Below the pieces are notes generated by a model. That model was not told where the DNA came from and searched no databases. It saw only the letters and a list, made by a program, of their open reading frames with translations. DNA of 64,000 nt from a virus. Of this stretch, positions 2,180 to 18,421 are shown in pieces. The stretch lies in the IMG/VR virus record IMGVR_UViG_3300028800_000083, one strand, 5' to 3'. The translations under genes were made by a program, and so were the position numbers. Positions within the stretch are counted from its first letter, which is position 1, and every line of letters starts with the position of its first letter.

Positions 2180-2887
2180 GTCGAGACCACGACGAGGTCT
2201 CGCATCGATTGCGCCGTTCTAGCTTTCTAGCTTGTTATGCAGGTACTTCTGTCGAGACCACAGCGCGGTTTCGCATCGATCGCGCCGGGCGCCGGGCGCC
2301 GAGCGCACCGGTCCCCACTCCGAGGTCGAGACCATCGCGAGGTCTCGCATCGAGCACGCCCGCTTCCGTGTCTCCTCTACGTCGAGACGTCGAGACCATC
2401 GCGAGGTCTCGCATCTCTCGCAGCGCTTGCGCTGATCTGTGCGTCCGTGCGTCCATCCCTCTACGTCGAGACCACAGCGAGGTCGCGCATTTATCGTTAC
2501 GTGCTTGTGCTTGAGCGAGAAGCGAGAACGGTCCGGGGTCCGGGGTCCCGTGTCCTGTGTCCCGTTATCCGACGCCGACGCCGACGCCCGACGCCTTGTG
2601 GACTTTGTCGAGTGTCGAGACCCGAGACCCCAGTGAGGTCTCGCAGCGGTGATCTTCGTGCGCACGTCGTCTTCGAGACCACCGCGAGGTCTCGCATTGA
2701 TCATTGATCGCGCCAGGCACCAGGTAGCGGCTCTTCGCTCTCCGCTCTCCGTCTCCGTCGACTCAGCGATGATCCAGTCGAGACCACAGCGAGGTCTCGC
2801 ATCGAGATCGCGTTGGCGAATCCACCGATTCACCTCAAGAACGTAAGCGTTGTCGAGACCACAGCAAGGTCTCGCATCGTTCGGCAC
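2180..2887 (-). CRISPR. decayed CRISPR remnant with B-type repeats (~10 degenerate units)
   Basis: Units such as gtcgagaccacgacgaggtctcgcatcgattgcgcc and gtcgagaccacagcgaggtctcgcatcgagatcgcg recur at irregular 60-90-nt spacing. They are clearly derived from the array B consensus and are heavily mutated. The remnant abuts the first A-type repeat at 2909. Confidence 0.6.
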
Positions 2888-2908
2888 TACACACTACACG
2901 GTCAAGAA

Positions 2909-5821
2909 GTCTCGGTTGTTAACCAACCGAGCGGGTACGATCATAGGGTGTCCCTTAGAGCCTTAGACAGTGCAGTAGCTTCCTGTCTCAGCCGTCAACC
3001 GGCTGAGCAAGTGCGACCAAGGGCCTCGGGCCTCGGGCTTGTGCCCCTCGGGCCTCGGGCCTCGGGGGTCGGGGAGAATGCACGGACTCCCACTCGTCTC
3101 GGGCGTCGACCGACCGAGCAAGTCTTGCGGTTTGCGGTGTGCCGGTGTGCCGGTGTGCCGGTGTGCCGTGTGCCGTTGCTCAAGTCCCGGTCGTCAACCG
3201 GCCGAGTGACCGAGTCTCATGGCACTGCGCTGTAATCCCCTTGCTGTCTCGGTCGTCAACCGACCAAGCAGGTACTCTCGCTACATGCACATGCGCGCAC
3301 TGGCACTCACTGACGTCAACCGTCCGTCTGAGCGTCTGAGCTGCAACAAGCTCAAGGCTGGTCTCGGACGTCAACCGTCCGAGCAGGCGCGATCACTCCG
3401 AAGCTCCGTAGGCATAGCTGTCTCGGACGTCGGACGTCAACCGTTCGAGCAGGTGTCGATCATCCGCACGAGTGTCGAGTGTCGAGTGTCGAGCGCAAAC
3501 TCGGGATTCTCTGTCTCGGACGTCAACCGTCCGAGCAGGTGCGATCACCTACCAGGGTGAGAGATGGAAACAATCTCCGTCTCGGGCGTCAACCGTCCGA
3601 GCAGGTGCGATCACTCTCATAGATCACGTGCTCCAGCCTCCAGCCTCCAGCCTCCAGCCTCCAGCCTCCAGACGTCGGATCAGGCTCGTCTCGGACGTCA
3701 ACCGTCCGAGCAGGTGCGATCACCTGCCCCCCTGCCCCCCGCAGAGGCCGCAGAGGCGCAAGAACTCTCTCGCCAGTCTCGGACGTCAACCGTCCGAGCA
3801 GGTGCGATCACAGGCAGGTTCTCGCCTGGCTCCCGGCTCCCGGCTCCCGGCTCCACCTAACCAAGGTGTCTCGGACGTTAACCGTCCGAGCAGGTGCGAT
3901 CACCCGCTCGCTGAGCGTGAGCGTGAGCGGCCGATCGTAGCGGGTGTCTCGGACGTCAACCGTCCGAGCAGGTGCGATCACACGCGAGCATCGGGTGGCG
4001 CTGGCCCTCTCTAAACAATGCGTCTCGGACGTCAATCGTCCGAGCAGGTGCGATCATCTTCTGGACGCACGACGACAGATTCGGGATTCGGGTTGGCCCA
4101 GTCTCGGACGTTAACCGTCCGAGCCGCATCCCATGCGGCAGCGGCCCGATCCCTTGTCTCGGACGTCAACCGTCCGAGCAGGTGCGATCACCTCGCACGG
4201 GCGCGCGAGCCGTGAGGCCGTGAGCCGTCGATCGAGCTCAAGTCTCGGACGTCAACCGTCCGAGCAGGTGCGATCACTTGTGCGCGCGCATGCCGCGGGC
4301 GGCGGGCGGCGCGTGGTCTCGAACGTCAACCGTCCGAGCAGGTGCGATCACACGACGACGAATCAGCAGGCAAGGATAACTGCTGGTCTCGGACGTCAAC
4401 CGTCCGAGCAGGTGCGATCACAGGGGACGGACATCTTCGTGTTCGATCTTGGCACGCCTCGACCTCGAGCCACCTATAGTCTCGGACGTCAACCGTCCGA
4501 GCAGGTGCGATCACAAGCCACCCGCGACGCCTACGCGATGGAGCGTCGAGTCTCGGACGTCAACCGTCCGAGCGTCCGAGCAGGTGCGATCACACGCGCT
4601 GTACATCGGCCCCGGCGAGAAGTTCCGGTCTCGGACGTCAACCGTCCGAGCAGGTGCGATCACACGCGACCCGTGACCCGTTGCGCGAACGCGCGAACGG
4701 AACGGCCGGCTCCTCGTCTCGGACGTCAACCGTCCGAGCAGGTGCGATCACGCTCGGCGGCCAGCTGATCAGCACGCGCGATCGCTTGTCTCGGACGTCA
4801 ACCGTCCGAGCAGGTGCGATCACAATTGGCGATCAGTTGCGCGCGGCTGCGCGCTCGTCTCGGACGTCAACCATCCGAGCAGGTGCGATCACCCGCAGTT
4901 CGGGCAGGGAGCGTCCTCAAAGATCTGTCTGTCTCGGACGTCAACCGTCCGAGCAGATGCGATCACCTTCGACCGGTAGCGCGAGCGCTCGGGTACTTGT
5001 GGTCTCGGACGTCAACCGTCCGAGCAGGTGCGATCACGCGTCTCGACGGGGTAGCGCACCGAAATGGTCCGGGTCTCGGACGTCAACCGTCCGAGCAGGT
5101 GCGATCACGAGGTCAGCCGGTGTCCCAAATGCGGCGCCTTCGGGTCTCGGACGTCAACCGTCCGAGCAGGTGCGATCACTTGTGACGCATGTGCTCGCGG
5201 CTGGCAGCACTCAGTCTCGGACGTCAACCGTCCGAGCAGGTGCGATCACAGGATCACGCGCGTCGCCTCGTTAATCAGTCCGTCGTCTCGGACGTCAACC
5301 GTCCGAGCAGGTGCGATCATGCGAGAGCCGTGCCCGTCTGAATCACGATCTCCCAGCGTCTCGGACGTCAACCGTCCGAGCAGGTGCGATCACCGGCCGG
5401 GCGAAGCTTACCCGTTCAACTATCGAGTGTGGTCTCGGACGTCAACCGTCCGAGCAGGTGCGATCACAGGTGCCGCCTTTTGCTGCGTGTACAGGCGTTG
5501 GCTGTCTCGGACGTCAACCGTCCGAGCAGGTGCGATCACTCACCCATCGGACTGGCCAGTCCCTGGAGATCGGGTCTCGGACGTCAACCGTCCGAGCAGG
5601 TGCGATCACACGTCGTGACCGATCTAGCGATGACTAATCGGTTCGTCTCGGACGTCAACCGTCCGAGCAGGTGCGATCACCCTCGGCGCTGCGCGTAGCT
5701 GGTCTGCCCGTCTAGTCTCGGACGTCAACCGTCCGAGCAGGTGCGATCACTCGCAGCAGGCGATCCTCAAGCTGGCGCGGCCGATGTCTCGGACGTCAAC
5801 CGTCCGAGCAGGTGCGATCAC
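2909..5821 (-). CRISPR. CRISPR array A, ~40 units, 36-nt repeat GTCTCGGACGTCAACCGTCCGAGCAGGTGCGATCAC (plus-strand reading)
   Basis: Regular ~71-72-nt period with unique 34-36-nt spacers between 3361 and 5821. Repeats are degenerate and spacers irregular in 2909-3350, so that is the old end and the effector-proximal right end is the young end. The repeat contains the inverted repeat CTCGGACG/CGTCCGAG. On the minus strand the hairpin sits at the 3' end of the repeat next to the spacer, which is the type V-like arrangement. Strand is inferred. Confidence 0.9.
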
Positions 5822-5970
5822 CGGAGTTTCTTATTCAGTTGTCAAAGAAGGCACTTGCATCCTTCGATGCAGGCACCGGTAGCTTTACTCCACGCTCGTG
5901 CGTGTCGCGAGGGAGGACCCCTCTGAATGCTGCTGTACGGCCTGAGGTTTCGGGGGCGCATGAACCTCTT
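5822..5970 (-). promoter_or_regulatory. candidate leader or intergenic region between effector A 3' end and array A
   Basis: 149-bp stretch with lower GC (cggagtttcttattcagttgtcaaagaagg...) directly flanking the best-conserved terminal repeat. Contains the hairpin TGCATCcttcGATGCA at 5856-5871. Confidence 0.35.
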
Positions 5971-7908
5971 CTACGCGGCACGCCGCACCTGCGGCACCGG
6001 ACCGCTCGACAAGCCGTGCCTGTGGAGGAGGTTGCGCGCGGCGTTCGCGTCCTGGTCCCAGGTCCGAATGCACGACGAGCAGGTGTGCTCGATCGAGGCT
6101 GCCGCGTCGAACGCCTCGACCGAGCCGCACCACGCGCACGCCTTGGTCGAGTCCGCGGCCTGCTCGGCCTCGACGCGGGCGCCGCGTTTGGGGGCGGCCT
6201 TGAGGATCTCGGCGCGAAGCTCGCCGGGAGCTGCAAGGCGGCTCATGCGGCGCTGCTCGCGCCCGTCGGACGGGTCGCCGTCCTCCGGCGCGGGCTGCTC
6301 CCAGCCGTCGACCTCGGTGAGCTTCATCGAGGTGTCGTGGTTCGACCCGCTCTCGATCAGGATCGTCGCGTAGCGGGCGGTGAGCTCGGCGGCGATCACG
6401 CGCCACACCTCACGGCGGTGGGCGATCAAGCGATCGCGCTGGTGCTCCTCCCAGTTCTGGAGGTGTCGATCTTGGCGCGCCCACGCCTGGAGCACGGCGA
6501 GGATCGGACCGTCGCCGTCGATGCGGTTGGCCGTCGAGCCGAAGTCCGAAGGGTTGCACTTCTTGCCCTCGGCGCGAGCGACGCGCCAGGCGTCCCAGTC
6601 GATCCCAGTCCAAGCGTCGACGAGGGAGGCGAGCTTGCGGGGGGCGCGCCACTGCGCCAGGCTGCCGACGCGCTCGGCCATCCACGCGGGGGTCTCCCGG
6701 TCGAGCAGCCAGGCCGCGAGGCGGTCGCGCGCGGTCTCGAACTCCTTGTCGCGGATCGACGCCAGGTCGTGGACCTTGGCCATTCCCGTCAGCAGATCGT
6801 CGGGCACACGGATCTCGCGCTCGTGCCCGTGCTCGTCGACGAGGTAACCAACGCGCAGACCGACCTGCACGCCCTGGGCGTCGAACAGCCGCCGCCAGCC
6901 CAGGTCGATCGCGCAGGTCCCCTCGCCGATCGCCACCGGGCAGGCACGAAAGCGCTCGCTCTCGAGCGTGAGCTGGAACCTCCACTCGTAGTGACGGCCG
7001 ACGCGCTTGCGCACGACGTACGCCCACTTGATCACCGCGTCCTTCGGGATGGGTCGGTGGAGGGTGAGGGGGAAGCGCGCGAAGATCGGCTTCCGGTCAG
7101 GGTGGCTGCCGACGCGCAGGTCGACGTACGTCCGTGCCGCGTGACGGCGCAGGTTGCGCGGGAGGCACGCGGCCTCCTCCCACGTGGCGCACGCTCCGAC
7201 CTCGGCGCGCGGGTGCTTGTCGGCGAGACCAGGGGTCCCCAGCCGGAGCCGGGAGTCCTGCTGCGACAGCAGCTCGCTGACGGTCATGCCGTAGATTCCC
7301 GGGGCGCCGTCGCGCGCGATGAGCTGCGTGCCGATCGATCCGGTCCCGTCGTAGCGCTCGAAGTGGAGCGGGCGCTTCGCCGTCTTGACGGCCTGCTTGA
7401 CCGAGTTCTCGACGCGGTCGTAGGTGCCGGTGCGCAGTCCTCGCTCGATGAAGGCGCGGCGGGCCTCCTTGCGGCGCAGCGCCGTGAGCGCGCGCGCGGC
7501 CTCGTAGCCCGGCTGGAGCTGCGCCGCGCGAGACGCCTTGGCCTCGCGCAGCTCCGCGCCGCACAGGGCGCGGAGGTCCTTGGCGCGGGCGAGCACCTCG
7601 CGCTCCGCCGTCAGGTCCGGGGCAGCGACGCCGGACTTCGCGGCCCGCAGGTCGTCGTAGGCGTCGTCGACGGCACCCGCCGCGTCCTCGTAGTCGCGGA
7701 GGGCCGCACCGACGATCGGATCCGCGAGCTGGACGCCGCGGAGGTCGTCCCAGAGCTTGTGCTCGATCTCGACGAGCGTGTTGCGGTACTGGTGCGCGAG
7801 GCGGAACTGCTCTTCGACGCGGTTCACCTCGGTGATCGGAGGCAGGCAGCGGTACGAGTAGATCCGGGTCGGGACGTCGGAAGTCTTCTTCCTGGGCTGT
7901 CGCGGCAT
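5971..7908 (-). CDS. TnpB-like RuvC nuclease, putative type V CRISPR effector (Cas12-family, subtype unresolved), copy A
   Basis: ~646 aa from ATG at 7908; the longer in-frame ORF reaches 7980. TnpB-like N-terminus (PTRIYSYRCLPP). RuvC-I is AIDLGW, with the Asp codon GAC at 6904-6906. RuvC-II is ILIESG. Zinc finger CAWCG..(14)..CSSC is followed by RuvC-III DQDANAARNLL. A 40-unit array lies 150 bp downstream on the same strand. Confidence 0.75.
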   Translation of the reverse strand: MPRQPRKKTSDVPTRIYSYRCLPPITEVNRVEEQFRLAHQYRNTLVEIEHKLWDDLRGVQLADPIVGAALRDYEDAAGAVDDAYDDLRAAKSGVAAPDLTAEREVLARAKDLRALCGAELREAKASRAAQLQPGYEAARALTALRRKEARRAFIERGLRTGTYDRVENSVKQAVKTAKRPLHFERYDGTGSIGTQLIARDGAPGIYGMTVSELLSQQDSRLRLGTPGLADKHPRAEVGACATWEEAACLPRNLRRHAARTYVDLRVGSHPDRKPIFARFPLTLHRPIPKDAVIKWAYVVRKRVGRHYEWRFQLTLESERFRACPVAIGEGTCAIDLGWRRLFDAQGVQVGLRVGYLVDEHGHEREIRVPDDLLTGMAKVHDLASIRDKEFETARDRLAAWLLDRETPAWMAERVGSLAQWRAPRKLASLVDAWTGIDWDAWRVARAEGKKCNPSDFGSTANRIDGDGPILAVLQAWARQDRHLQNWEEHQRDRLIAHRREVWRVIAAELTARYATILIESGSNHDTSMKLTEVDGWEQPAPEDGDPSDGREQRRMSRLAAPGELRAEILKAAPKRGARVEAEQAADSTKACAWCGSVEAFDAAASIEHTCSSCIRTWDQDANAARNLLHRHGLSSGPVPQVRRAA

Positions 7909-7920
7909 CCGTGAATGGCT

Positions 7921-7948
7921 AACAGGATGATAGACGTTTTGCAAGGCT
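7921..7948. promoter_or_regulatory. conserved motif copy 1 (GCTAACAGGATGATAGACGTTTTGCAAG), 13-40 bp upstream of effector A ATG
   Basis: A 28-nt identity with the copy at 18211-18238 and 21 nt shared with the copy at 22314-22334. On the minus strand it reads TTGCAA-N17-TAGCCA and ends 13 nt before ATG 7908. Confidence 0.45.
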
Positions 7949-8011
7949 TCGTGACGGCGGTCCCCCTGGGACAGAGTCACTACCCCGGAGCGTACACGGC
8001 GTCCGATTCAC

Positions 8012-11000
8012 GTCGAGACCACTGCGAGGTCTCGCATCGATCGCGTGATCGCCTGTTGGTCGAGGTTTCACATCGATCGTGCCGCCTTGCCGTGCCAGGT
8101 GAGCAAGCGCTTGCACACGTCGAGACCACAGCGAGGTCTCGCATCGATCGCACCAACCTGAAATCGTCGGCGCCTTCATCCGGACGATTCGTCGGTCGGT
8201 TGAGACCACAGCGAGGTCTCGCGTCTCGCATCGATTGTGCCGAGAGTCGGCGCGGAGTTCTACGTTGACTTCTTCGGGTCGAGACCACCGCGAGGTCTCG
8301 CATCGATCAGGCCCGGCAATTTCATTGGCCGGAACTCCCAGTACCGGCTGGTCGAGACCACCGCAAGGTCTCGCATCGATCCCAGCCCAAATGTGAATCC
8401 GTCGAGACCACCGCGAGGTCTTGCATCGATCATCGATTGGGCCTCCCGCCCGCTCGCCAGCTCGCCGGGTTAGCAGTGGTCTCGACGAGCGGATCTACCG
8501 CGAGGTCTCGCATTGATCGTACCCCTTTTCCCTCGCCGTTTTCGCGGTCGTTGAGACCACTGCGCGCTGCGAGGTCTCGCAGCGATCGGGCCGAGCGGCC
8601 GAGCGGCCGAACGGAGCTGCCCCCAGCTCACGCGCTCGTAGGCTGATCGACCGGCTCGTCGAGACCGCCGCGAGGTCTCGCATCGATCGTGGCACTTCTT
8701 CGGGACCATACCCGTCACCTTGAGGAGAACTCGTCGAACCTCGTCGAGACCACCGTGGTCTCGCATCGATCGTGCCAATCGATTCGCGCAACGTCGATCG
8801 TGTCTGATTCGACGAGCTCGGGGCGAAGCGGTCGAGACCACAGCGAGGTCTCGCATCGATCATGCCTGTGGTGACGAAAAGGGCTGACAACGGTGACCTG
8901 TGGGTCGAGACCACAGCGAGGTCTCGCATCGATCGTGCGTCGGTGACTTGCTTCGATCGTGTCTTTGTCGGGGGCTTGCGCGAAACTTGGACCATGGGCA
9001 GTCGAGACCACAGCAAGGTCTCGCATCGATCACACCTGCGAACGGCGAGCTTCACAGTCAAGACGGCGCGCATTGATCTTGGCAGGCTTCAAGTTTCAAG
9101 TCCCTCGTGCGCCTTATCGTCCGTATCGTCGCGTTCTGGTCGAGACCATCGCGAGGTCTCGCATCGATTGCACCAGGGCTGCTCTGTGCCCTGGGGGCAT
9201 GCTCGGTGCTCGGCTGCTCGTCGAGACCCCTGCAAGGTCTCGCACTGACCGGAACTGATTCGCAACCACCTGTCGAGACCACCGCAAGGTCTCGCATCGA
9301 TTGTGCCGTTTGTACGTGAGGTTGATGAGGGGACGTCGAGAGTCGAGACCACCGCTCCTCATGGCAGCGTCGGGGTGGACCAACGACCAACGGTCGAGAC
9401 CACCGTGAGGTCTCGCATTGATCGTGCCCCCTTCTTGGGCCAGCAGGCGTCCTCCGTCAAGTGGTCGAGACCACAGCACAGCGAGGTCTCGCATCGATCG
9501 CGCCTCGATATCGCGCGGGCGCGCGGTGGTGGCTCAATGCTCAATGTTGTCGAGACCGTAGATGACCTGCGGCATTGCGGCACATTGAGCGTGGTCGAGA
9601 CCACAGCGAGGTCTCGCATCGATTGTGTCACTCGGCGATCTCGTTGTCCGTACCCCGTCGCCGCAGTCGAGACCACAGCGAGGTCTCGCATCGATTGTGC
9701 CCGACCTCGTGATTCGTGATTCGACGTGAGGATGGAGATCCCGGTGTCGAGATCTCGCGTCGATTGTGCCGTGGACGCCAAGTGGAGCGAGAGCCTTGGT
9801 AAAGCTGTCGAGACCACCGCGAGGTCTCGCATCGATCGTGCCAAGTAGGCTGCACATGAGTCGATGGCCGTTCGGCGTGTCGAGACCACCGCGAGGTCTC
9901 GCATCGATCGAGCTTGCGCACAGGTTTTCGAGACCACCGCGAGGTCTCGCATCGATCGTGCCGTGAAGACGTAGTCCCCGCGCGGCGGACTCGCATTGTC
10001 GAGACCACCGCGAGGTCTCGCATCGATTGTGCCCGTCAGCCTAAGCACCCTGTCGCGCTGGGAGTCGAGACCACCGCGAGGTCTCGCATCGATTGTGCCG
10101 CCTAGGCGCAGGCGTCTCACCTACGCAATCGCTAAGTAGAGACCACCGAGGTCTCGCATCGATCGTGCCGGGGGGCCGGGGATCGTCGACCGTCGGCCCA
10201 ACTGCGGACAGTCTAGGCGAGACCACAGCGAGGTCTCGCATCGATCGTGCCCAGCGCTTGCTCGCTTCCTCTTCGCGCGCCGATGACGACGTGTTGCGGC
10301 GGTAACAGGTAACAGGTGCGCACCGGGTGTTTGGGTCGAGACCACAGCGAGGTCTCACATCGATTGTGCCCCGGCTAAGCTGAAGAACCGTGACCCCAAA
10401 CTACGGCGAGTCGAGACCACAGCGAGGTCTCGCATTGATTGTGCCCCGTGACCAGGCTCGAGTACGTCAGCTTCAGCACCGTAGGGTCGAGACCACAGCA
10501 AGGTCTCGCATCGATTGTGCCAGCCTCAGGCTCCGCGTCCTGCTATTCCCGTTCGTCCAAGTCGAGACCAGCGCGGTCTCGCATCGATTGTGCCACGTGC
10601 CACGCGAGCCGCATCCCAGCCGTCAGGGTGTCGAGACCACCGCGAGGTCTCGCATCGATTGATTGTGACGCCGTGCAGCGCGCCAAGAATCGGGGCGATG
10701 CCAGTGTCGAGACCACCGAGGTCTCGCATCGATTGTGCCGTACCGCCGCGAGCGCGCCTTGACCGACGTAGAGCGTGTCGAGACCACCGCGAGGTCTCGC
10801 GTCTCGCATCGATTGTGCCGCGACACTCGCCGAAGTCGACCTCCGATCCCGACCCTGTCGAGACCACCGCGAGGTCTCGCATCGATTGTGCCTCCGCACC
10901 GTGCGCTGCGCGCTTCGGTGTCGTCTGGTCGAGACCACCGCGAGGTCTCGCATCGATTGTGCCTGCCGGCCTGCCGGCCTGCCGGCATCGCGCCGACGTC

Positions 11001-14000
11001 GTGGACGTGGGCACACCCGTCGTCGAGACCCCCGCGAGCACAGCACCGATCGTCAACTGGTCGAGACCACCGCGAGGTCTCGCATTGATTGTGACCGCTC
11101 GGGTCACCCACCATCTGCCGTGACACGATCTTGTCGAGACCACCGCGAGGTCTCGCATCGATTGTGCCGACGGACGCGGACGTCGTCGAGAAATGTCGGC
11201 CCTTGTCGAGACCACCGCGAGGTCTCGCATCGATCATCGATCGTGCCTTGCCACGACTACGCATGTGGCTCGGCGGGTCTGCGCGTGGGGCCACACCTCG
11301 GACTGGTCGAGACCACCGCGAGGTCTCGCATCGATCATGCCGTTACCTGCTAAGACGGTAAGCAGGGAGGTCGTCGAGACCACTGCGAGGTCTCGCAGCG
11401 ATCGTGCCCGTGAGGTCTCGCCCCTGCGACGTTGGGATCGGTCGTTGGTCGAGACTACCGCAAGGTCTCGCATCGATCGTGCCGCAACAGAATTCGTGAC
11501 GGCGCCGATACTCGGAGCGGTCGAGACCACCGCGAGGTCTCGCAGCGATCGTGCCCAGGCATCTATCAAGGCTACGCTTGCACGGGCGCTCGTCGAGACC
11601 ACCGCAAGGTCTCGCATCGATCGTGCCCTTTGCTGTCATGTGTCCTCTTCTTCCTTCTTCCTTGCAGGTTGTCGAGACCATCGCGAGGTCTCGCATCGAT
11701 CGTGCCGCGCGGTCGCGCCGTCGCGCGGGACGCGATGCTGTAGTCGAGACCACCGCGAGGTCTCGCATCGATCGTGCCGCTCGCGTAGCGAGGTGCCAAC
11801 GGCGTTCTTACGAGGTCGAGACCACCGCGAGGTCTCGCATCGATCGTGCCGCCCAGGAGCGTCAGAGTGTCGACCATTTCGCCGTGTCGAGACCACCGCG
11901 AGGTCTCGCATCGATCGTGCCGTTCAACCCGCACTCGGGCAAGCACAAGACGCTCGGTCGAGACCACCGCCGTGACGGATGAGCCTGTTGCTGTTGGGCA
12001 GGCCTACGTCGTATTGGTCGAGACCACCGCGAGGTCTCGCATCGATCGTGCCCTGGCTGTCCTTAAGACGAGGCCCCTATGGACCGAGAGTCGAGACCAC
12101 CGCGAGGTCTCGACCACATGGCTCCGGCTCTGGTCGAGACCACCGCGAGGTCTCGCATCGATCGTGCCGTCTCCACGTTCACGCCGCCCTCCCACGCGAG
12201 CCAGTCGAGACCACCGCGCGGTCTCGCATCGATCGTGCCGTGCCACGTGCCACGTGCCACAGCAGCAGCGAGCCCAGACTAGACAGTTCGTCGAGACCAC
12301 CGGGAGGTCTCGCATCGATCGTGCCAGTCGGTCGCTTGACCATGGCTAACCTCAAAAATGTGTCGAGACCACCGCGAGGTCTCGCATCGGTCGTGCCCTC
12401 GATACGGACCCGAGAAACGGAAACTGGTTTTTCAGTCGAGACCACCGCGAGGTCTCTCATCGATCGTGCCGGCCAAGTCTTCCTCGGTCGTCGAGCGCCC
12501 GCCGGCCTTGTCGAGACCGCCGCGAGGTCTCGCATCGATCGTCGATCGTGCCCTCTTGTAGACCCAGCCGTGTAGCCGATAGAGCTGCTTGTCGAGACCA
12601 CCGCGAGGTCTCGCATCGATCGTGCCGTCTCGTCGCTCGCCATGCTCGCCGGCACACCGAACCCGTCGAGACCACCGCGAGGTCTCGCATCGATCGTGCT
12701 CCCAGGCGAGCGAGTCGAGGTAGTCGCGGACCGGGTGGGTCGAGACCACCGCGAGGTCTCGCATCGATCGTGCCGCACGCGGGCGCGCGCTCGGTGTCGT
12801 TGACCGTTGACCGAGGAGGTCGAGACCACCGCGAGGTCTCGCATCGATCGTGCCGCCGTGCAATTGCGGACGGCCGATCTACTTCCGGTGGTCGAGACCA
12901 CCGCGAGGTCTCGCAATCGATCGTGCCGGTCGAGAGTGCGTGACCGAAAACACGGAACCGGAGGCTGGTCGAGACCACCACGAGGTCTCGCATCGATCGT
13001 GCCGTACAGGTTCGCCGTGGTGCCCTTGGGCGCACCGTAGTCGAGACTACCACGTCATAGCGGCCGTCGAGACCACCGCGAGGTCTCGCATTGATCGTGC
13101 CGCGACCTCGTCGAGGTGCCGCTCGTCGTTCATTCTTGTCGAGACCACCGCGAGGTCTCGCATCGATCGTGCCTTGCCTAGCCGCCGAGGCGTTCGGCGA
13201 CAAGACAGCGGGTCGAGACCACCGCGAGGTCTCGCATCGATCGTGCCGCGGCCGGGCAGGAGGGCAGGAAGTTGAACGTCGAGTCAACTTTGTCGAGACC
13301 ACCGCGAGGTCTCGCATCGATCGTGCCGAACGCCGAACACTGCTGAGCGGCAGGCGATACTCCTAGGGCAGTCGAGACCACCGCGAGGTCTCGCATCGTC
13401 GCATCGCTCGTGCCTGCAACGCGCGGTTCGCTCAGCGGGGGTTGGAGGTGGTCGAGACCACTGCGAGGTCTCGCATCGATCGTGCCCGCGACTCGTTCGT
13501 CGTTCGCCGCGTCGGCCGTAGTGCGCCGGGTCGAGACCACTGCGAGGTCTCGCATCGATCGTGCCACGCGCGCCAAGTCGGTCCAACTAAGAGCCCCAAT
13601 CGTTGTCGAGACCACCGCGAGGTCTCGCATCGATCGTGCCCAGCCGACCGAATTCGCCACTGCATTTACGACGCTGTGTCGAGACCACCGAGAGGTCTCG
13701 CATCGATCGTGCCGAACGCGGGCGCGTCGGGCTCGAGTTCGTTCCATTGGTCGAGACCACCGCGAGGTCTCGCATCGATCGTGCCGCGCGCATCGTGCGG
13801 CAAGCGTGCGGCAAGCGTGCGGCATGAGCTTGTCGAGACCGCCGCGAGGTCTCGCATCGATCGTGCCTTATCGTCGGACTTGCCGATCCCGAGCTGCCCT
13901 TTTGTCGAGATCACTAGGTCTCACATCGATCGTGCCGGTTATGGCGCCCTCGTTGTCGCAGTGCCCGTTCTCGTCGAGACCACCGCGAGGTCTCGCATCG

Positions 14001-15906
14001 ATCGTGCCGATCGTCGACGTGGAACGTGGAGGCGCGTTGGCGCAACCGGAAGTCGAGACCACCGCGAGGTCTCGCATCGATTGTGCCCGTCGCGCGCTCG
14101 CCCGATATCGATGAGCCCAACGTGTCGAGACCACCGCGAGGTCTCGCATCGATCGTGCCGGGAAGTAGGCTGCACATGAGTCGATGGCCGTTCTGCGTGT
14201 CGAGACCACCGCGAGGTCTCGCATCGATCGTGCCGTCTAACGTGGCTGCTCACCGGAGCCGTGGTTCGCTGTCGAGACCACAGCGAGGTCTCGCATCGAT
14301 CGTGCCTCGGGAATTCCAAGACCTCCGTCAGCGGTTCCTCTCGTCGAGACCACAGCGAGGTCTCGCATCGATCGTGCCGGTGTCAAACGTGCGATGGAAC
14401 AGGCGGAGGTTTAGGTCGAGACCACCGCGAGGTCTCGCATCGATCGTGCCTGAACACGTTCTTGCCGTTGGCGCCTTCGCCATAATGGTCGAGACCACCG
14501 CGAGGTCTCGCATCGATCGTGCCGTTGTGCAGACACTTTGCCGTAACGACGCCGGTGTCGTCGAGACCACCGCGAGGTCTCGCATCGATCGTGCCGAACG
14601 ACTCGAAGGTCGCGACATCGACGCATCTGTCGTCGAGACCACCGCGAGGTCTCGCATCGATCGTGCCCGCGTGCGAAGCAGAGATGCCCTCGAGCAGTCG
14701 CTCGTCGAGACCACCGCGAGGTCTCGCATCGATCGTGCCGCTGCGCGACCGCGACGAAGCTCGTCGTCCTCATAGATGCTCACGTCACGTCGAGACCACC
14801 GCGAGGTCTCGCATCGATCGTGCCACAGGAGTAGACACGGATCCACGGAGGAACCAATGGGTCGAGACCACAGCGAGGTCTCGCATCGACGACGTGATCG
14901 CCCGTTGGTCGAGACCACCGCGAGGTCTCGCATCGATCGTGCCAGGTCGGGCTGGACCTTGGCAGTCGAGACCGCTGCGAGGTCTCGCATCGATCGTGCC
15001 GAAAGCGGCCGGGTCGGGCGCGGGCGCGATCTGCGCGTCGAGACCCCCGTGAGGTCTCGCGTCTCGCATCGATCGTGCTGTTCAGGATCTCAGCCGCAGC
15101 GAGCGAGGTGTCTATGTCGAGATGTCGAGACCACCGCGAGGTCTCGCATCGATCGTGCCCAGCAACGAACCCGGGCTAGAGAGTTCGAACCCATGTCGAG
15201 AGTCGAGACCACCGCGAGGTCTCGCATCGATCGTGCCGATCGCCGCCGCGATTGAAGCAGCGCTCGTCTCTGGCGTCGAGACCACCGCGAGGTCTCGCAT
15301 CGATCGTGCCTGATCTGAGCGGCCTTGTCGATCGGCTCAAGGTCGAGACCACCGCGAGGTCTCGCATCGATCGTGCCGGCTCGGACGCATGACCAAGAGC
15401 GTTACGTTCGATGTGTCGAGACCACCGCGAGGTGCCATGACCTCACCATAGCGCGCCCGCGATCGTGCCGACGAACCCGAATTCCTCCGCCGAGGACAAT
15501 CCGTAGGTGTCGAGACCACCGCGAGGTCTCGCATCGATCGTGCCGGGGCTTGGGCTCGATCCGCGCTACACGATCTCGTCGTCGAGACCACCGCGAGGTC
15601 TCGCATCGATTGTGCCCGCCTGACGGTACGCCGCCGGGGCGGAGGGCTGCGTGTCGAGACCACCGCGAGGTCTCGCATCGATTGTGCCCTCGACCGTCTC
15701 GTGCCAGCCCTTCGGGATTCGCACGTCGAGACCACCGCGAGGTCTCGCATCGATTGTGCCCACTCTCGTGGTCTCGTGGCAATACCCACTCGACGTGCGT
15801 CGAGACCACCGCGAGGTCTCGCATCGATTGTGCCGCGCCGCTTGTCCGGTGGCGACCAGGACTTCAGGATGTCGAGACCACCGCGAGGTCTCGCATCGAT
15901 TGTGCC
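8012..15906 (-). CRISPR. CRISPR array B, ~108 units, 36-nt repeat GTCGAGACCACCGCGAGGTCTCGCATCGATCGTGCC (plus-strand reading)
   Basis: 72-74-nt period with unique 36-39-nt spacers. Repeats are degenerate in 8012-9100 (old end) and near-perfect toward 15906, which is the end next to effector B. Palindrome GAGACC/GGTCTC. Sub-variants ...GATCGTGCC and ...GATTGTGCC occur in blocks. A few truncated repeats are present, for example at 12090. Strand is inferred as for array A. Confidence 0.9.
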
Positions 15907-15927
15907 TTCGATTGTCAGAGAACGAAC

Positions 15928-16199
15928 CATGCTTATCCGGTTGTCACCCCTCGCGGGCGCGACGGATCTCCTTGATCTTTCGCTCGGCGCGCTTCGCAGA
16001 GGCTCGCCATTCAGCGAGAGCTTCCGTTGGGGTGAATTCTTGAATCGTTCCGCCGACGTTGATCACGGACGGTCGCTTGCCCAGAGAGGCGGAAAGAAGC
16101 TCGCCCATTTCGGAGCGGATGATTTTAAGTTCACGTTCGAGTCGCGATGCCATTTGATGTCTCCCTGATCACGTTTGGGGTGTTAACCGGATAAGCATG
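15928..16199. mobile_element. MITE-like insertion (272 bp) with 23-bp imperfect terminal inverted repeats and 8-bp target-site duplication GAACGAAC (15920-15927 and 16200-16207)
   Basis: Left end CATGCTTATCCGGTTGTCACCCC versus right end GGGGTGTTAACCGGATAAGCATG; 21 of 23 positions match as reverse complement. Identical direct repeats GAACGAAC flank both ends. The interior has lower GC. It sits between the last array B repeat (ends 15906) and the effector B stop (16212). Confidence 0.65.
15944..16153 (-). CDS. small ORF inside the MITE (69 aa, coiled-coil-like, lower GC)
   Basis: MASRLERELKIIRSEMGELLSASLGKRPSVINVGG... The only ORF of 60 aa or longer within the TIR-bounded element. Codon usage is atypical for the surrounding DNA. 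It may not be expressed. Confidence 0.3.
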   Translation of the reverse strand: MASRLERELKIIRSEMGELLSASLGKRPSVINVGGTIQEFTPTEALAEWRASAKRAERKIKEIRRAREG

Positions 16200-16211
16200 G
16201 AACGAACGATC

Positions 16212-18167
16212 CTACGGCGTTGCGGGGCTCGGCGCGAGCGGCTGCTGGTCCTTCCGCCGGTTCCGCCGCGCCGGGGCCTTCTTCTTCGTCGAAGGTGCCG
16301 GAACCTTGGGGTCGAGCGGCCACCCGCTCTCGCCGCGCGCGACGGCGCTCGCGGCGGCGAGCAGGTTTCGGCTCATCGTGATGTCCTGGTCCTCGGCGTG
16401 GCCGCAGTTCTCGCAGCGGATCACCCGCTGCACCCGGTCTTCCCGCGAGACGTCGCGGTGGTGACCGCAGGCCGCGCAGTCGAGCGTCCCACCGGCAGCG
16501 TCGACCTCCAGGTCGACGCTGCCGTACTTCTTCGCGAAGTAGCCGACGCGGGCGCGGGCGCGCCCGGGCCCCAGGATGTTCACGCGGCGCGCCGTCTTCT
16601 TGCGCAGCTTCTGCTCGTCCTCGTCGTGCTGGTCGTCCTTCTCGACGAGGCCGGTCACGTCGAAGTCGTCGCGGGCGACGACCCCGTAGCGCTTGGCCAG
16701 CTGGACCGCGACCGCGGTGACGCGGCCCTCGACCTGGCGCTGCATGCGCTCGAGGCTCGGCACCTCGCGGTGGAGCAGGTGGACGTCCTGCTTGCTCCAC
16801 GCCTCCAGCGCCGCGAAGGCCGGCTGGTCGCCGTGGATGCGCTGGTCTCGCCACTGCCGGTGCAGGCGGACGTACTTGCTGGGGGCCCGCCAGTTGTGCA
16901 TGTGGCGGCTCTCTTCGCGGAGCCACGACGTCGCCGGCAGCGACCGGGCGTAGGCGAGGATCATGTCGCGGAGCACGTCCTGGTTCTGGTCGCGGATCGA
17001 ATGGATCGAGTCGGCCCAGGGTTTCACACCGAGCACGTCCTCGGGGATCACGAGTTGCCCCCAGAGCGGGCTCGCGGGGTCGTTGGGGTCGAGTGGCGCG
17101 GTGGCGCTCCACGTGAGCAGGCGGATGCCCGCCTTCTTGCCCTCCTCGTCGAAGAGCTGACGCCAGCCGATGTGGACGGCGACCGCGTCGTGCGGGTGCG
17201 GGTGCGGGGTGGTCACGGCCACGGAGCCCTCGACCTCAAGCGTGAGGTACCAGCGGTAGCGGAGCCCGGTGCGCTCGCGCCGGACCACGGCCCACTTGAC
17301 GACGTCGTGCCCGAGCTGGAGGCGGTTCTTCGTGCGCGGGGACTGGTGCAGGAGCAGGTGCATCTGGGCCCAAATCGGGCGGATGGTGCCCGGCACAGTC
17401 CCGACGCGGATCGCGAGCGCGTGGAAGCGCTTGCCCTTCGTGGCGGCCTCTCCCGCGCGCGGCCCGATCTTGATGACGTCTCCCGGGTTCCCGGCGACGT
17501 CGATCGCGCGCCCCTCGGCGTCGACCGCGGCGGGTCGGAAGTGGTCGACCGGGGCACCCAGCGAGTACGCGACCGATCCGATGCGCAGCCAAGACCCTTC
17601 GCCGCCGATGAGATCGTCGGCGTAGACGGACTTCTTGGCGGGAAGTGTCTTGCCGGTCCGCGCGTCGATGCGCGCGTTCTGCCGCTGGAACTGGACGGCG
17701 ATGCGGCCCACGTCCGGGGGGAAGTCCGTCCCCACGAACGTGGTCCGGCCGTTTTCGTCGATGAGCCCTGCCTTGTCGATCGTGCGCCGCGCGAAGTCGG
17801 CCGCGTCGTCCGCCTTGCCGAGCGTCCCCCACATGGCTCCCGCCTCGATCGTCGCGTCGCGCACGGCCTTGAGCGCGCGCTTCTTCCCCGCGAACACGCG
17901 CTCGCGGAGGGCCTTGAACTCGTCAGAGGCGTGCCACGCATCGCGGGCAGCTTTCCCAGCCTCCGACTTCCACCACGCGCCACGCGCTTCGACGGGTACG
18001 TCCCTGGCCGGGTAGTCGATGAGCGCGCGCCGGAGGAAGCGCTCGCGGTTCTCGATGAGCGCGATCTGTCGGCGGTAGCGCGCGCCGAGGCGCACCTGCT
18101 CGCGCAAGCAATGGTCGTCGGCGGCCGTCGCCGGGAGACAGAGGAACTTGTACACGCGCATCGTCAT
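16212..18167 (-). CDS. TnpB-like RuvC-fold protein, putative type V CRISPR effector paralog B with divergent catalytic residues
   Basis: 651 aa; about 30-35% identical to copy A over its full length (RVYKFLCLPA N-terminus, WRAPSK, AWSKQD, KRYG blocks). RuvC-I reads AVHIGW, with His codon CAC at 17172-17174 where copy A has Asp. RuvC-II reads VVARDD. Zinc finger CAACG..CENCG is followed by EDQDITMSRNLL. A 108-unit array lies downstream on the same strand. Confidence 0.75.
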   Translation of the reverse strand: MTMRVYKFLCLPATAADDHCLREQVRLGARYRRQIALIENRERFLRRALIDYPARDVPVEARGAWWKSEAGKAARDAWHASDEFKALRERVFAGKKRALKAVRDATIEAGAMWGTLGKADDAADFARRTIDKAGLIDENGRTTFVGTDFPPDVGRIAVQFQRQNARIDARTGKTLPAKKSVYADDLIGGEGSWLRIGSVAYSLGAPVDHFRPAAVDAEGRAIDVAGNPGDVIKIGPRAGEAATKGKRFHALAIRVGTVPGTIRPIWAQMHLLLHQSPRTKNRLQLGHDVVKWAVVRRERTGLRYRWYLTLEVEGSVAVTTPHPHPHDAVAVHIGWRQLFDEEGKKAGIRLLTWSATAPLDPNDPASPLWGQLVIPEDVLGVKPWADSIHSIRDQNQDVLRDMILAYARSLPATSWLREESRHMHNWRAPSKYVRLHRQWRDQRIHGDQPAFAALEAWSKQDVHLLHREVPSLERMQRQVEGRVTAVAVQLAKRYGVVARDDFDVTGLVEKDDQHDEDEQKLRKKTARRVNILGPGRARARVGYFAKKYGSVDLEVDAAGGTLDCAACGHHRDVSREDRVQRVIRCENCGHAEDQDITMSRNLLAAASAVARGESGWPLDPKVPAPSTKKKAPARRNRRKDQQPLAPSPATP

Positions 18168-18195
18168 TGTTGGGCGCCCCGCTGTCGCACGTGCT

Positions 18196-18238
18196 GTTGT
18201 TGCATTGACGAACAGCTAACAGGATGATAGACGTTTTG
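18196..18238. promoter_or_regulatory. conserved motif copy 2 (TTGCATTGACGAACAGCTAACAGGATGATAGACGTTTTGCAAG) between divergent effector B and RHH-like gene
   Basis: Nearly identical to the copy at 22302-22339. Quasi-palindromic ends (TTGCA..ACG / CGT..TGCAA). Possible -35/-10 readings in both directions: TTGACG-N17-TAGACG on plus and TTGCAA-N17-TAGCTG on minus. Confidence 0.5.
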
Positions 18239-18421
18239 CAAGACGCAATGTTCGAGCCGAAGCAACAAGCCGCGGAGAAACTCAGCCACTACATCGGTGC
18301 GCGCGTCACCGACACCGAAGAGTCGTGGCTCCGCGCCGAGATGAAGCGCAGAAAGATCACGATGAGTGACTTGATGCGCCTCGCGCTCGGCAAGCTCTTC
18401 GTTTCCAAGAAGACGGGGTGA
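18224..18421 (+). CDS. small ribbon-helix-helix-like protein (possible transcriptional regulator)
   Basis: 65 aa. The C-terminal half, MSDLMRLALGKLF, resembles the CopG/RHH fold. Transcribed divergently from effector B; its start lies within the conserved motif. Confidence 0.4.
   Translation: MIDVLQDAMFEPKQQAAEKLSHYIGARVTDTEESWLRAEMKRRKITMSDLMRLALGKLFVSKKTG

What the first reader, a model, noticed from the sequence alone, without database searches (positions are those of the whole stretch)
2180..5821. Composite array: decayed B-type repeats fused to the distal end of array A
Degenerate B-type units occupy 2180-2887 and run without a break into degenerate A-type units at 2909-3350, followed by well-kept A-type units up to the effector-proximal end at 5821. 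The last B-type unit is gtcgagaccacagcaaggtctcgcatcgttcggcac, and a 21-nt spacer separates it from the first A-type unit, gtctcggttgttaaccaaccgagcgggtacgatcat. This looks like the record of an older B-type unit whose effector and leader-proximal array were replaced by, or recombined with, the A-type unit. It suggests modular exchange between the two repeat families.
Basis: seen in the sequence. Interest (0 to 1): 0.55.

Follow-up and report, generated by a model that had tools for sequence, protein, structure and literature searches.

The report
Fossil CRISPR repeats behind another array
A dead stretch of one CRISPR repeat type lies directly behind the old end of a second CRISPR array in a giant phage-like genome; it is a scar of past reshuffling between two Cas12m defence modules, not a working hybrid array.

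Summary
Nine decayed B-type repeats (2180-2887) are followed after 21 nt by the old end of array A (2909-5821). None is expected by chance, and independent assemblies from several samples agree.

The locus holds two type V-M CRISPR-Cas12m modules in tandem on the minus strand: cas12m-B (16212-18167, H-D-D RuvC), then array B (about 100 units, 15906 to 8012), then cas12m-A (5971-7908, D-E-D), then array A (38 units), then the B-type remnant B'. Both arrays are young at the effector end and decayed at the far end.

B' is one of three A/B junctions:
- cas12m-B sits behind a regulatory cassette that relatives carry only on A-type genes.
- cas12m-A keeps a truncated copy of that cassette, fused to the last unit of array B.
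- The tail of array A abuts B'.

The locus is therefore a recombination mosaic. The oldest "degenerate" A units are partly ancestral repeat variants with compensatory stem changes.

This is ordinary CRISPR biology in an unusual setting. Interest is modest.

The parts
2180..2887 (-). B': nine decayed B-type repeat units with irregular, duplication-ridden spacers (15-120 nt). A stranded fossil of a B-type array.
   Evidence: 24-32/36 identity; 0 expected by chance. The 7-bp stem is intact in 7 of 9 units. There are 14.1 tandem duplications per kb. No spacer is shared with array B.
2888..2908 (-). Junction iii, between the last A unit and the first B' unit. It contains a 7-nt tandem duplication (CACTACA on +). 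On the minus strand it reads TTCTTGACCGTGTAGTGTGTA.
   Evidence: TTCT-TGAC resembles the window's B leader TTCTCTGAC; 5 of 143 spacers match equally well by chance. CCGTGTA recurs at junction ii (P about 0.027).
2909..3512 (-). Tail of array A: seven old units, several with different but still complementary stems. These are ancestral-type variants as well as decay.
   Evidence: Unit 2909 is closer to a relative's repeat (31/36 to L015) than to the modern A repeat (28/36). There are 14.9 duplications per kb.
3513..5821 (-). Main body of array A (36-nt repeat; on the minus strand GTGATCGCACCTGCTCGGACGGTTGACGTCCGAGAC). It is pristine from 4716 to 5821, the leader-proximal end.
   Evidence: edit distance per unit 0.19 proximal, 1.13 middle. 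The hairpin folds at -16.1 kcal/mol.
5822..5970 (-). Leader of array A, between the cas12m-A stop codon and the first repeat. It carries the conserved motif TTTGACAACTGAATA.
   Evidence: the motif is conserved in front of the first repeat in L015, L020, L021 and L041.
5971..7908 (-). cas12m-A (645 aa from ATG 7908), with a D-E-D RuvC triad.
   Evidence: PADLOC Cas12u1, E 1e-88. (PDB Cas12m 23vw_A, E 1e-64; AIDLGW, LIESG, WDQD). The start codon was set by alignment with relatives.
7909..7992 (+). Truncated A-type regulatory cassette. The conserved core at 7918-7945 is identical to 18215-18242. It is followed by a decayed remnant of about 65 nt of the small divergent gene, with the start codon lost.
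7993..8011 (-). Junction ii: 19 nt between the cassette remnant and the last unit of array B.
8012..15906 (-). Array B: about 100 units (36-nt repeat; on the minus strand GGCACGATCGATGCGAGACCTCGCGGTGGTCTCGAC). Decay increases smoothly from 15906 to 8012.
   Evidence: Edit distance per unit runs 0.55, 0.29, 0.77, 1.14, 1.00, 1.58, 2.93, 4.21 from the proximal to the distal end.
15907..16211 (-). Leader of array B (TCTCTGACAATCGAA next to the first repeat), interrupted by a 272-bp insertion at 15928-16199. The insertion has 15-nt terminal inverted repeats, an 8-bp direct duplication and one 69-aa ORF.
   Evidence: Relatives have only 25-26 nt here.
16212..18167 (-). cas12m-B (651 aa), with an H-D-D-type RuvC triad. 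It is 25% identical to cas12m-A.
   Evidence: AVHIGW, ARDDF, EDQD. H is conserved in the seven closest homologues (P0001-P0007, the first being this protein's own cluster).
18168..18421 (+). Junction i plus an intact A-type cassette. It comprises about 25 nt of remnant from the 5' coding end of an A-type effector, the conserved core at 18215-18244, and the intact small divergent gene at 18248-18421 (57 aa; weak NikA-like / ribbon-helix-helix hit).
   Evidence: The cassette is present before A-type genes in L015, L020 and L021. It is absent before B-type genes in L012/L013, L016 and L040.

Best explanation
What the locus is. The region belongs to a tandem pair of type V-M CRISPR-Cas12m modules on the minus strand of a very large phage-like genome.

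How each module works. Each module is an effector gene followed by its own array. The array is transcribed in the same direction as the gene. By analogy with characterised Cas12m, the effector itself cuts the transcript into crRNAs, each with a 36-nt repeat handle followed by a guide. The crRNA directs Cas12m to bind matching DNA and so silence it, without cutting it (inferred).

How the arrays age. New units enter at the effector-proximal end, next to a conserved leader motif. Old units drift to the far end. There they decay by substitutions, deletions and, in this genome, 7-8-nt tandem duplications.

What B' is. B' (2180-2887) is such a decayed far end of a B-type array. It is a fossil and not part of a working hybrid array: its spacers are scrambled and it has no leader or effector of its own.

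How B' came to lie behind array A. The locus was rearranged by recombination between the two modules, and three A/B junctions survive.

Preferred reconstruction (inferred, about 0.5). The block 'cassette remnant + cas12m-A + array A' (7992 to 2909) came to lie inside the old tail of array B. This happened either by insertion or by a swap of neighbouring segments with duplication of about 140 bp of the cassette. B' is then the original end of array B, cut off from it.
For: Shown:
- Both effectors are Cas12m. One has a D-E-D and the other an H-D-D triad, which are known clades of the family.
- Arrays are transcribed on the effector strand. Of 32 distinct A-type repeat variants from the window and three relatives, 29 keep 8/8 stem pairs on that strand, against 13 on the other. 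On the 30 aligned variants, 98.8% of cells are paired, 4 of 8 pairs show compensatory changes, and 0 of 500 shuffles do as well.
- Polarity is shown by decay gradients in both arrays and by a leader motif conserved beside the first repeat in the arrays of the window and seven related loci.
- B' is B-type.
- The three junctions are documented.
- In a related 332,853-bp genome the two modules are separate loci about 31 kb apart in opposite orientation. Their arrays are clean and of a single type. The site syntenic to the left flank of the window has no CRISPR there. The tandem, composite arrangement is therefore derived.

For B' as the severed end of array B:
- Repeat decay continues the B gradient, from 4.21 edits per unit at 8012-9000 to 4.33 in B'.
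- The ancestral C at repeat position 33 rises from 0% to 27%, 38% and then 63% towards B'.
- B' shares C11/G34/C35 with array B, against the repeats of L012 and L040.
- The two cassette copies are each other's closest relatives: identical core, and S-H-Y codons where relatives have A-N-Y.
- A 7-nt direct repeat, CCGTGTA, flanks the A block (P about 0.027).
- One rearrangement then explains junctions ii and iii together.
Against: - Tandem-duplication density is 14.1/kb in B' but only 3.0/kb in the adjoining B tail (binomial p=0.011). It matches the A tail instead (14.9/kb). If duplications act as a clock, B' shares its history with array A, not with array B.
- TTCT-TGAC lies 6 nt before the first B' unit and resembles the window's own B leader. 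This would make B' an array with its own leader end. Five of 143 spacers match as well by chance.
- No spacer is shared between B' and B, and no related genome shows an unsplit array. The reconstruction therefore rests on internal evidence only.
- Both junction 'signatures' were found post hoc, at P of about 0.01-0.03.
- Cas12m function, crRNA processing and transcription of B' are inferred from the family, not tested.
Confidence: 0.5

Rival explanations
1. B' is what remains of an independent, older B-type module at this site. Its effector gene, and most of its leader, were replaced by the incoming cas12m-A module. The present cas12m-B + array B block arrived later, inserting into the regulatory cassette of the A module and duplicating about 140 bp of it.
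For: - The density of 7-8-nt duplications orders the parts as B' (14.1/kb) and A tail (14.9), then A middle (9.1), then the whole of array B (2-6, flat), then A proximal (0). This is the order this history predicts.
- A possible B-leader remnant, TTCT-TGAC, lies at the right distance before the first B' unit.
- Array B looks frozen: there are no pristine units even at its leader end (4.4 duplications/kb), and a 272-bp element is inserted in its leader. This fits an imported block that no longer grows.
- A relative (L042) shows that an old array with its own leader copy can sit directly behind a younger one.
Against: - It needs two separate events and two related B-type modules.
- The continuity of repeat decay and of repeat variants from array B into B' would be a coincidence.
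- The leader match has a chance rate of 2-3.5% per spacer and was found post hoc.
- The duplication 'clock' disagrees with the repeat-decay gradient inside array B itself, so it may not be a clock.
Confidence: 0.3
2. B' is a copied or translocated piece of array B (or of another B-type array). It was moved to the far side of array A by a separate illegitimate recombination, or it arose by leader-plus-array duplication of the kind seen in L042.
For: - Stacked arrays of one type, with a duplicated leader, exist in L042.
- One spacer is duplicated within array B (9843-9878 and 14160-14198, 35/36), showing that units can be copied.
Against: - No spacer of B' matches any spacer of array B.
- It requires more events than either of the other histories.
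Confidence: 0.1
3. The composite is a functional hybrid array, or it records gradual in-place evolution of the repeat from B-type to A-type.
For: - Seven of nine B' stems are intact, and a cognate effector (cas12m-B) is encoded 13 kb away.
- The two repeat types share one architecture: a 13-nt tail, a hairpin at positions 14-34 and a 2-nt end.
Against: - The switch is abrupt. Unit 2852 is B-type and unit 2909 is A-type, with no intermediates.
- The effectors are only 25% identical, and both types already exist as separate loci in a relative.
- B' spacers are irregular (15-120 nt) and full of tandem duplications.
- No targets were found.
Confidence: 0.04
4. The junctions are assembly chimeras, created where a metagenome assembler jumped between repeats.
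For: CRISPR arrays commonly break or mis-join assemblies. In one sample the two effectors lie on different contigs that end inside array B.
Against: - Junctions ii and iii lie in degenerate, unique sequence.
- They are reproduced at 99.96-100% identity in contigs assembled independently from at least six samples by different pipelines: ENA, JGI and Logan.
Confidence: 0.02

Closest known systems
Type V-M (formerly V-U1) CRISPR-Cas12m systems, e.g. Mycolicibacterium mucogenicum Cas12m2 and Gordonia otitidis Cas12m (PMC10442227, PMC11013384)
   Same: - Effector homology (PADLOC Cas12u1; PDB Cas12m) and a compact size of about 650 aa.
- D-E-D and H-D-D RuvC variants, both described for the family.
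- A 36-nt repeat with a 3' hairpin, and an effector plus array with no adaptation genes nearby.
- By inference, PAM-dependent DNA binding without cleavage, guided by self-processed crRNA.
   Different: - Two divergent Cas12m modules (25% identity) sit head to tail.
- The arrays are far longer (about 100 and 38 units) than the 8-spacer phage example or the short arrays studied so far.
- One module has captured the other's regulatory cassette.
- The host is a phage-like genome with a contig of 461,400 bp, not a bacterial chromosome.
- No function was tested here.
Trailer-end degeneration of CRISPR repeats (PMC12839519; review PMC8047081)
   Same: Mutations concentrate in terminal repeats, and old spacers are retained there. 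Both arrays here show that polarity.
   Different: - The decayed zones are very long: about 25 units in array B and 7-20 in array A.
- Decay includes a distinctive 7-8-nt tandem-duplication signature.
- The oldest A units preserve earlier functional repeat versions with compensatory stem changes.
Recombination as a driver of CRISPR array evolution (PMC4524480)
   Same: Arrays and modules are reshuffled by recombination. The three A/B junctions here are scars of that kind.
   Different: That work concerns exchange of spacers between arrays of the same type in E. coli relatives. Here the exchange is between two different effector/repeat families, and it includes a promoter/regulator cassette.
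Phage-encoded CRISPR-Cas: huge-phage CasPhi, and the myxophage MV-1 Cas12m reported as the first phage Cas12m (bioRxiv 10.64898/2026.09.14.751636)
   Same: A compact type V effector with an adjacent array, no cas1/cas2/cas4, on a virus-like genome. The GC content of about 67% resembles that of myxobacteria and their phages.
   Different: - MV-1 has one D-E-D Cas12m and 8 spacers. This genome has two Cas12m clades and more than 140 spacers.
- The phage nature of this genome is not proven: no structural genes lie in the window.
- No close homologue exists in GenBank phages or IMG/VR.
Solitary or ectopic repeat units used as RNA anti-CRISPRs or CreTA-type regulators (PMC9458426; the RNA anti-CRISPR literature is cited from memory)
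   Same: Repeat-like units with intact hairpins but no useful guide, carried on a mobile element.
   Different: B' is a run of nine units in array register, decaying like neutral DNA. Its cognate effector is the genome's own, and nothing suggests selection on it. I considered this reading and did not adopt it.

Membership tests
Type V-M CRISPR-Cas12m | The effector is homologous to Cas12m / V-U1 over its full length. | tested here: met
   cas12m-A: PADLOC Cas12u1 E 1e-88, PDB 23vw_A E 1.2e-64. cas12m-B: PADLOC Cas12u1 E 1.5e-38, PDB 23vw_A E 1.3e-25.
Type V-M CRISPR-Cas12m | The RuvC triad is one of the family's described variants (D-E-D, H-D-D, N-D-D, etc.). | tested here: met
   cas12m-A has AIDLGW / LIESG / WDQD, i.e. 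D-E-D. cas12m-B has AVHIGW / ARDDF / EDQD, i.e. H-D-D, aligned to solved Cas12m. H is conserved in the seven closest homologues of cas12m-B (P0001-P0007, the first being its own cluster). Clades are as listed in PMC10442227.
Type V-M CRISPR-Cas12m | An adjacent array of about 36-nt repeats with a 3' hairpin, transcribed with the effector. | tested here: met
   Both repeats are 36 nt with a hairpin at positions 14-34. Covariation supports pairing on the effector strand. In relatives the arrays begin 25-70 nt after the stop codon.
Type V-M CRISPR-Cas12m | No tracrRNA. | tested here: inconclusive
   No anti-repeat was found outside the arrays at 22 or more of 36 matches; the minus-strand hits are self-overlaps of the palindromic stems. 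There are no Rfam hits. No RNA data are available.
Type V-M CRISPR-Cas12m | No adaptation genes (cas1/cas2/cas4) in the locus. | tested here: met
   The 20 ORFs within 2 kb to the left and 20 kb to the right have no PADLOC hit. Larger ORFs elsewhere in the window have no Cas hit in Pfam or PHROGs. ORFs beyond 38 kb were only partly scanned.
Type V-M CRISPR-Cas12m | [quoted passage not shown] | not testable with these tools
   Known for characterised members (PMC11013384, PMC10442227). Inferred here.
Functional hybrid (two-repeat-type) CRISPR array | Both repeat types are intact and in register with spacers of regular length, under one leader. | tested here: not met
   B' units are 24-32/36 identical, with spacers of 15-120 nt and 14 tandem duplications per kb. 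The adjoining A units are the most decayed of array A, at 6.7 edits per unit.
Huge (jumbo) phage genome | Virion structural and packaging genes (capsid, portal, terminase, tail). | tested here: inconclusive
   None were found among 20 ORFs of the window scanned against PHROGs. Hits were to a helicase, a DnaJ-like PHROG, RNA ligase, phosphoesterase and a glycosyltransferase. Gene style (many short co-directional ORFs without Pfam hits), a sigma factor and a 461,400-bp contig fit a huge phage or another giant extrachromosomal element. The rest of the contig was not available.

The most novel reading that the evidence does not exclude
The locus is a dated, readable record of competition between two Cas12m modules in one giant phage genome.

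- A module swap put cas12m-B under the regulatory cassette of cas12m-A.
- Array B then stopped acquiring spacers, possibly because a 272-bp inverted-repeat element landed in its 26-nt leader.
- Array A is still growing.
- The genome's 7-8-nt tandem-duplication habit acts as an internal clock that orders these events.

If so, these arrays would offer a natural experiment on leader function and on spacer acquisition by a phage that has no cas1/cas2 of its own.
Probability: 0.2. Interest if true: 0.55.

Novelty: new member of a known kind. Interest (0 to 1): 0.38.

Why it matters
Effector-plus-array modules of type V-M systems are shown here to be shuffled as cassettes within large phage-like genomes. 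Even promoter/regulator pieces are exchanged between effector clades.

The old ends of very long arrays can preserve both the scars of those events and earlier versions of the repeat hairpin. That gives a natural covariation data set for the Cas12m crRNA handle.

For annotation, it is a warning. A run of foreign-type repeats behind an array should not be called a separate or hybrid CRISPR without checking polarity and decay.

More broadly, more than 140 spacers beside two Cas12m genes, with no adaptation genes within 20 kb, sharpens an open question: how do such phage-borne arrays acquire spacers?

Tried and rejected
- Strain variants. Exact-protein look-ups for both effectors and for a left-flank gene returned only the same genome at 99.9-100% identity, with no spacer gain or loss.
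- IMG/VR. Protein-based scans for both effectors and DNA scans for both repeat cores found nothing.
- GTDB genomes. The B-type repeat core gave no hit. The A-type core gave 11 single, non-array hits, taken as chance.
- GenBank phages. The only hit is a 29% homologue in Virus Rctr197k. No protospacer was found for 2.3 kb of array A or for the whole of array B.
- Self-targets and targets in related loci. Only chance-level 15-20-nt matches were found.
- Spacer sharing between B' and B. None was found. An apparent 400-nt similarity between 9806-10170 and 14122-14524 reduces to one shared spacer.
- Synteny. The relative's homologue of the left flank lies 100 kb from both of its CRISPR loci, so synteny does not say which array 'belongs' next to the flank.
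- tblastx without a score filter gave only high-GC noise.
- Promoter/terminator scan: nothing above chance.
- tRNA and Rfam searches: nothing.
- Junction arithmetic. Leftover pieces of 19 nt + 14 nt add up to about one spacer. This is compatible with insertion into a spacer, but it is too weak to count and conflicts with reading the 14 nt as a leader remnant.
- The 160-nt interruption in the L041 array shows no homology to effector genes or leaders.
- In-place evolution of the repeat from B-type to A-type was rejected: the switch is abrupt and the effectors diverged long ago.
Full report
**Observation**

The window contains two families of 36-nt direct repeats.
- A gapless scan with the B consensus finds nine units between 2180 and 2887, with 24-32 of 36 matches.
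- A scan with the A consensus finds 38 units from 2909 to 5821.
- Eight of the nine B-type units match a 30-nt core with at most three mismatches. No such match occurs in 100 shuffles of the window.

The composite is not an assembly artefact. The same sequence across 2887-2909 and across 7992-8012 is found at 99.96-100% identity in contigs assembled separately from several samples by three sources. Both junctions lie in degenerate, therefore unique, sequence.

**What the locus is**

The two long minus-strand ORFs are both Cas12m, the effector of type V-M (formerly V-U1) CRISPR systems.
- The ORF at 5971-7908 matches PADLOC Cas12u1 at E 1e-88 and solved Cas12m at E 1e-64.
- The ORF at 16212-18167 matches PADLOC Cas12u1 at E 1.5e-38 and solved Cas12m at E 1e-25.
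- They are only 25% identical to each other.
- Alignment to solved structures gives a D-E-D RuvC triad for the first and H-D-D for the second. The histidine is conserved in the seven closest homologues of the second (P0001-P0007, the first of which is its own cluster).
- Both triads are described clades of the family, and neither cleaves DNA in the cases tested (PMC10442227, PMC11013384).

Read on the minus strand the order is: cas12m-B, array B (15906 to 8012, about 100 units), cas12m-A, array A (5821 to 2909), and B' (2887 to 2180). The convergent plus-strand genes of the left flank follow.

**Strand and polarity**

I collected 32 distinct A-type repeat variants from the window and three related loci.
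- 29 of the 32 keep all eight stem pairs on the effector-coding strand. Only 13 do on the opposite strand, because many changes pass through G-U pairs.
- On an alignment of 30 of these variants, 98.8% of cells pair, four of eight pairs show compensatory changes, and none of 500 shuffles does as well.

The arrays are therefore transcribed in the direction of the effector genes.

Both repeat types fold the same way: a 13-nt tail, a hairpin at positions 14-34 and a 2-nt end. A short motif, T(C/T)TGA(C/T)AA, lies next to the first repeat in both arrays of the window and in the arrays of seven related loci. This marks the effector-proximal end as the leader end.

Repeat decay, measured as edit distance to a consensus that allows the common variants, rises smoothly away from the leader.
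- Array B: 0.55, 0.29, 0.77, 1.14, 1.00, 1.58, 2.93, 4.21 edits per unit.
- Array A: 0.19, 1.13, 6.71 edits per unit.

So 5821 and 15906 are the young ends. B' lies beyond the old end of array A.

**What 'degenerate' means here**

The oldest A units are not only decayed.
- Unit 2909 has the stem CTCGGTTG/CAACCGAG and unit 2985 has CTCAGCCG/CGGCTGAG. The modern stem is CTCGGACG/CGTCCGAG. All of these are complementary.
- Unit 2909 is closer to the repeat of a relative (31/36 to L015) than to the modern A repeat (28/36).

These units are earlier working versions of the repeat, preserved at the tail.

Decay proper consists of substitutions, deletions and a striking number of perfect 7-8-nt tandem duplications. 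Densities per kb are:
- 14.1 in B'
- 14.9 in the A tail
- 9.1 in the middle of array A
- 0 in the youngest 1.1 kb of array A
- a flat 2-6 along all of array B
- 1-2 in coding DNA, where the periods are mostly 6.

The same signature is seen in the old units of relatives. The only indels between samples are microsatellite copy-number changes.

**Three junctions, not one**

In relatives, A-type effector genes (L015, L020, L021) are preceded by a cassette with three parts:
- a small divergent gene of 54-57 aa, with a weak NikA-like / ribbon-helix-helix hit;
- a conserved core of about 30 nt, GTCTTGCAAAACGTCTATCATCCTGTTAGC;
- TTCGTCA immediately before the ATG.

B-type effector genes in relatives (L012/L013, L016, L040) lack this cassette.

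In the window the cassette occurs twice.
- In front of cas12m-B it is intact (small gene at 18248-18421). About 25 nt that resemble the 5' coding end of an A-type effector follow it, just before the cas12m-B start. This is junction i.
- In front of cas12m-A the core is identical (7918-7945). Only about 65 decayed nucleotides of the small gene remain and the start codon is lost. This remnant abuts the last unit of array B at 8012 after 19 nt. This is junction ii.

**Comparison with relatives**

- A related 332,853-bp contig carries a 70% homologue of cas12m-B and a 62% homologue of cas12m-A. They lie about 31 kb apart in opposite orientation. Each has a clean single-type array of about 50 units, with no foreign units at the end.
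- That genome also has homologues of the window's left-flank genes, but with no CRISPR next to them.
- The tandem, composite arrangement is therefore derived in the lineage of the window.
- No genome with an intermediate arrangement was found. All other contigs either end in the arrays or are the same strain.
- One relative (L042) has a second copy of its leader inside its array, with no shared spacers on either side. An old array behind a younger one is therefore not unique to this window.

**How B' got there**

Two histories fit.

(a) The block 'cassette remnant + cas12m-A + array A' came to lie inside the old tail of array B. This could have happened by insertion, or by a swap of neighbouring segments with duplication of about 140 bp of cassette. 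B' is then the cut-off end of array B. In favour:
- Repeat decay is continuous, 4.21 then 4.33 edits per unit.
- The ancestral C at repeat position 33 rises 0%, 27%, 38%, 63% towards B' (polarised with L012 and L040).
- B' shares window-specific repeat states with array B.
- The two cassettes are each other's closest relatives.
- A 7-nt direct repeat flanks the block (P about 0.027).
- One event explains two junctions.

B' is the relic of an older B-type module whose effector was replaced by the A module, and the present B block arrived later. In favour:
- Duplication density in B' is like that of the A tail and 4.7 times that of the adjoining B tail (p=0.011).
- A possible remnant of the window's own B leader, TTCT-TGAC, lies 6 nt before the first B' unit. 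Five of 143 spacers match as well by chance.

The two internal 'clocks' disagree, and both junction signatures were noticed post hoc. I put (a) at about 0.5 and (b) at about 0.3. Either way, B' is a fossil left by recombination between the two modules.

**Function**

By analogy with characterised Cas12m, each effector would process its own array transcript. It would then use crRNAs, each a 36-nt handle plus a guide, to bind and silence matching DNA. This was not tested here.
- Seven of nine B' hairpins are intact, so read-through transcripts could still be bound by cas12m-B.
- The spacers, however, are scrambled, and no targets were found for any spacer in the window, in related loci or in GenBank phages.
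- No cas1, cas2 or cas4 was found among the 20 ORFs within 2 kb to the left and 20 kb to the right. How more than 140 spacers were acquired is open.
- Array A has 16 pristine leader-proximal units and looks active.
- Array B has no pristine zone. A 272-bp element with inverted-repeat ends is inserted in the 26-nt gap between its effector and its first repeat. Whether that stopped its growth is speculation.

**Context and novelty**

- The window comes from a 461,400-bp contig. It has about 67% GC, many short ORFs without Pfam hits, a sigma factor, helicases, DnaJ and RNA ligase. No virion genes lie in the window. This fits a huge phage or another giant extrachromosomal element, but it is not proven.
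- A 2026 preprint reports what it calls the first phage-encoded Cas12m, with eight spacers.
- Trailer-end repeat decay and recombination between arrays are established (PMC12839519, PMC4524480).

The finding is thus a new, well-preserved example of known processes in a known system type. The extras of some interest are capture of a regulatory cassette between effector clades, preserved ancestral hairpins and a 7-8-nt duplication signature.

Noticed in passing
window 15920-16207: A 272-bp element (15928-16199) has 15-nt terminal inverted repeats (CATGCTTATCCGGTT), an 8-bp flanking direct duplication (GAACGAAC) and one 69-aa ORF without Pfam hits. It is inserted in what relatives keep as a 25-26-nt gap between the cas12m-B stop codon and the first repeat. 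It has a single copy in the window.
   Followed up: partly
window 2180-15906, densest at 2180-4715; also L041 13000-13950 and L042 5190-5210: Perfect tandem duplications with units of 7-8 nt (2-6 copies) pervade the old parts of the arrays, up to 15 per kb. Coding DNA shows mostly period 6. Between samples the only indels are microsatellite copy-number changes (2114 GGCCGT, 23905 GGCTC). This looks like a genome-specific mutational signature.
   Followed up: partly
window 7918-7945 and 18215-18242; L015, L020, L021 upstream of their cas12m genes: A conserved core of about 30 nt (GTCTTGCAAAACGTCTATCATCCTGTTAGC, containing the palindromic TTGCAA) lies between a small divergent 54-57-aa gene and A-type cas12m genes. 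In the window it precedes both effectors and the two copies are identical. It is a candidate shared operator/promoter.
   Followed up: partly
L042 5156-5212: A relative's B-like array contains a second copy of its own leader motif, with TGATCTC triplicated, between unit 13 and unit 14. No spacers are shared on the two sides. This is two stacked arrays of one type with no effector between them.
   Followed up: partly
window 9843-9878 and 14160-14198: One spacer occurs twice in array B (35/36 identical). Its neighbours differ, so this is either a repeated acquisition or the copying of a single unit.
   Followed up: yes
window 8012-15906: Array B is built of blocks with alternating repeat variants at position 31. 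T is found at 15581-15906, C at 11205-15544, T at about 9272-11168, and a mixture below that. This suggests repeated sweeps of the leader-proximal repeat or recombination between arrays.
   Followed up: no
L041 5826-7049: A 407-aa gene with a Pfam AcrVA2-like hit lies 2.5 kb upstream of a cas12m-A-like gene in a related 99,865-bp contig.
   Followed up: no
window 23730-24011: A long imperfect pentanucleotide tract (GGCTC/GGCAA, about 50 units in all) lies upstream of the sigma-factor gene region. Its copy number differs by one unit between samples.
   Followed up: no
window 5832-5846, 15907-15921 and the leaders of L012, L015, L020, L021, L040, L041, L042: The leader motif T(C/T)TGA(C/T)AA (TTGACA-like) is conserved immediately upstream of the first repeat. 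It occurs in both Cas12m repeat families despite only 25% effector identity.
   Followed up: partly
L040 1930-2100: Upstream of a cas12m-B-like gene (83% identical), on the same strand, lies a short ORF ending ...TLTEWMRAVLNPAAVPPPPIKE. It looks like a ribbon-helix-helix protein. B-type modules may have their own, different small regulator.
   Followed up: no
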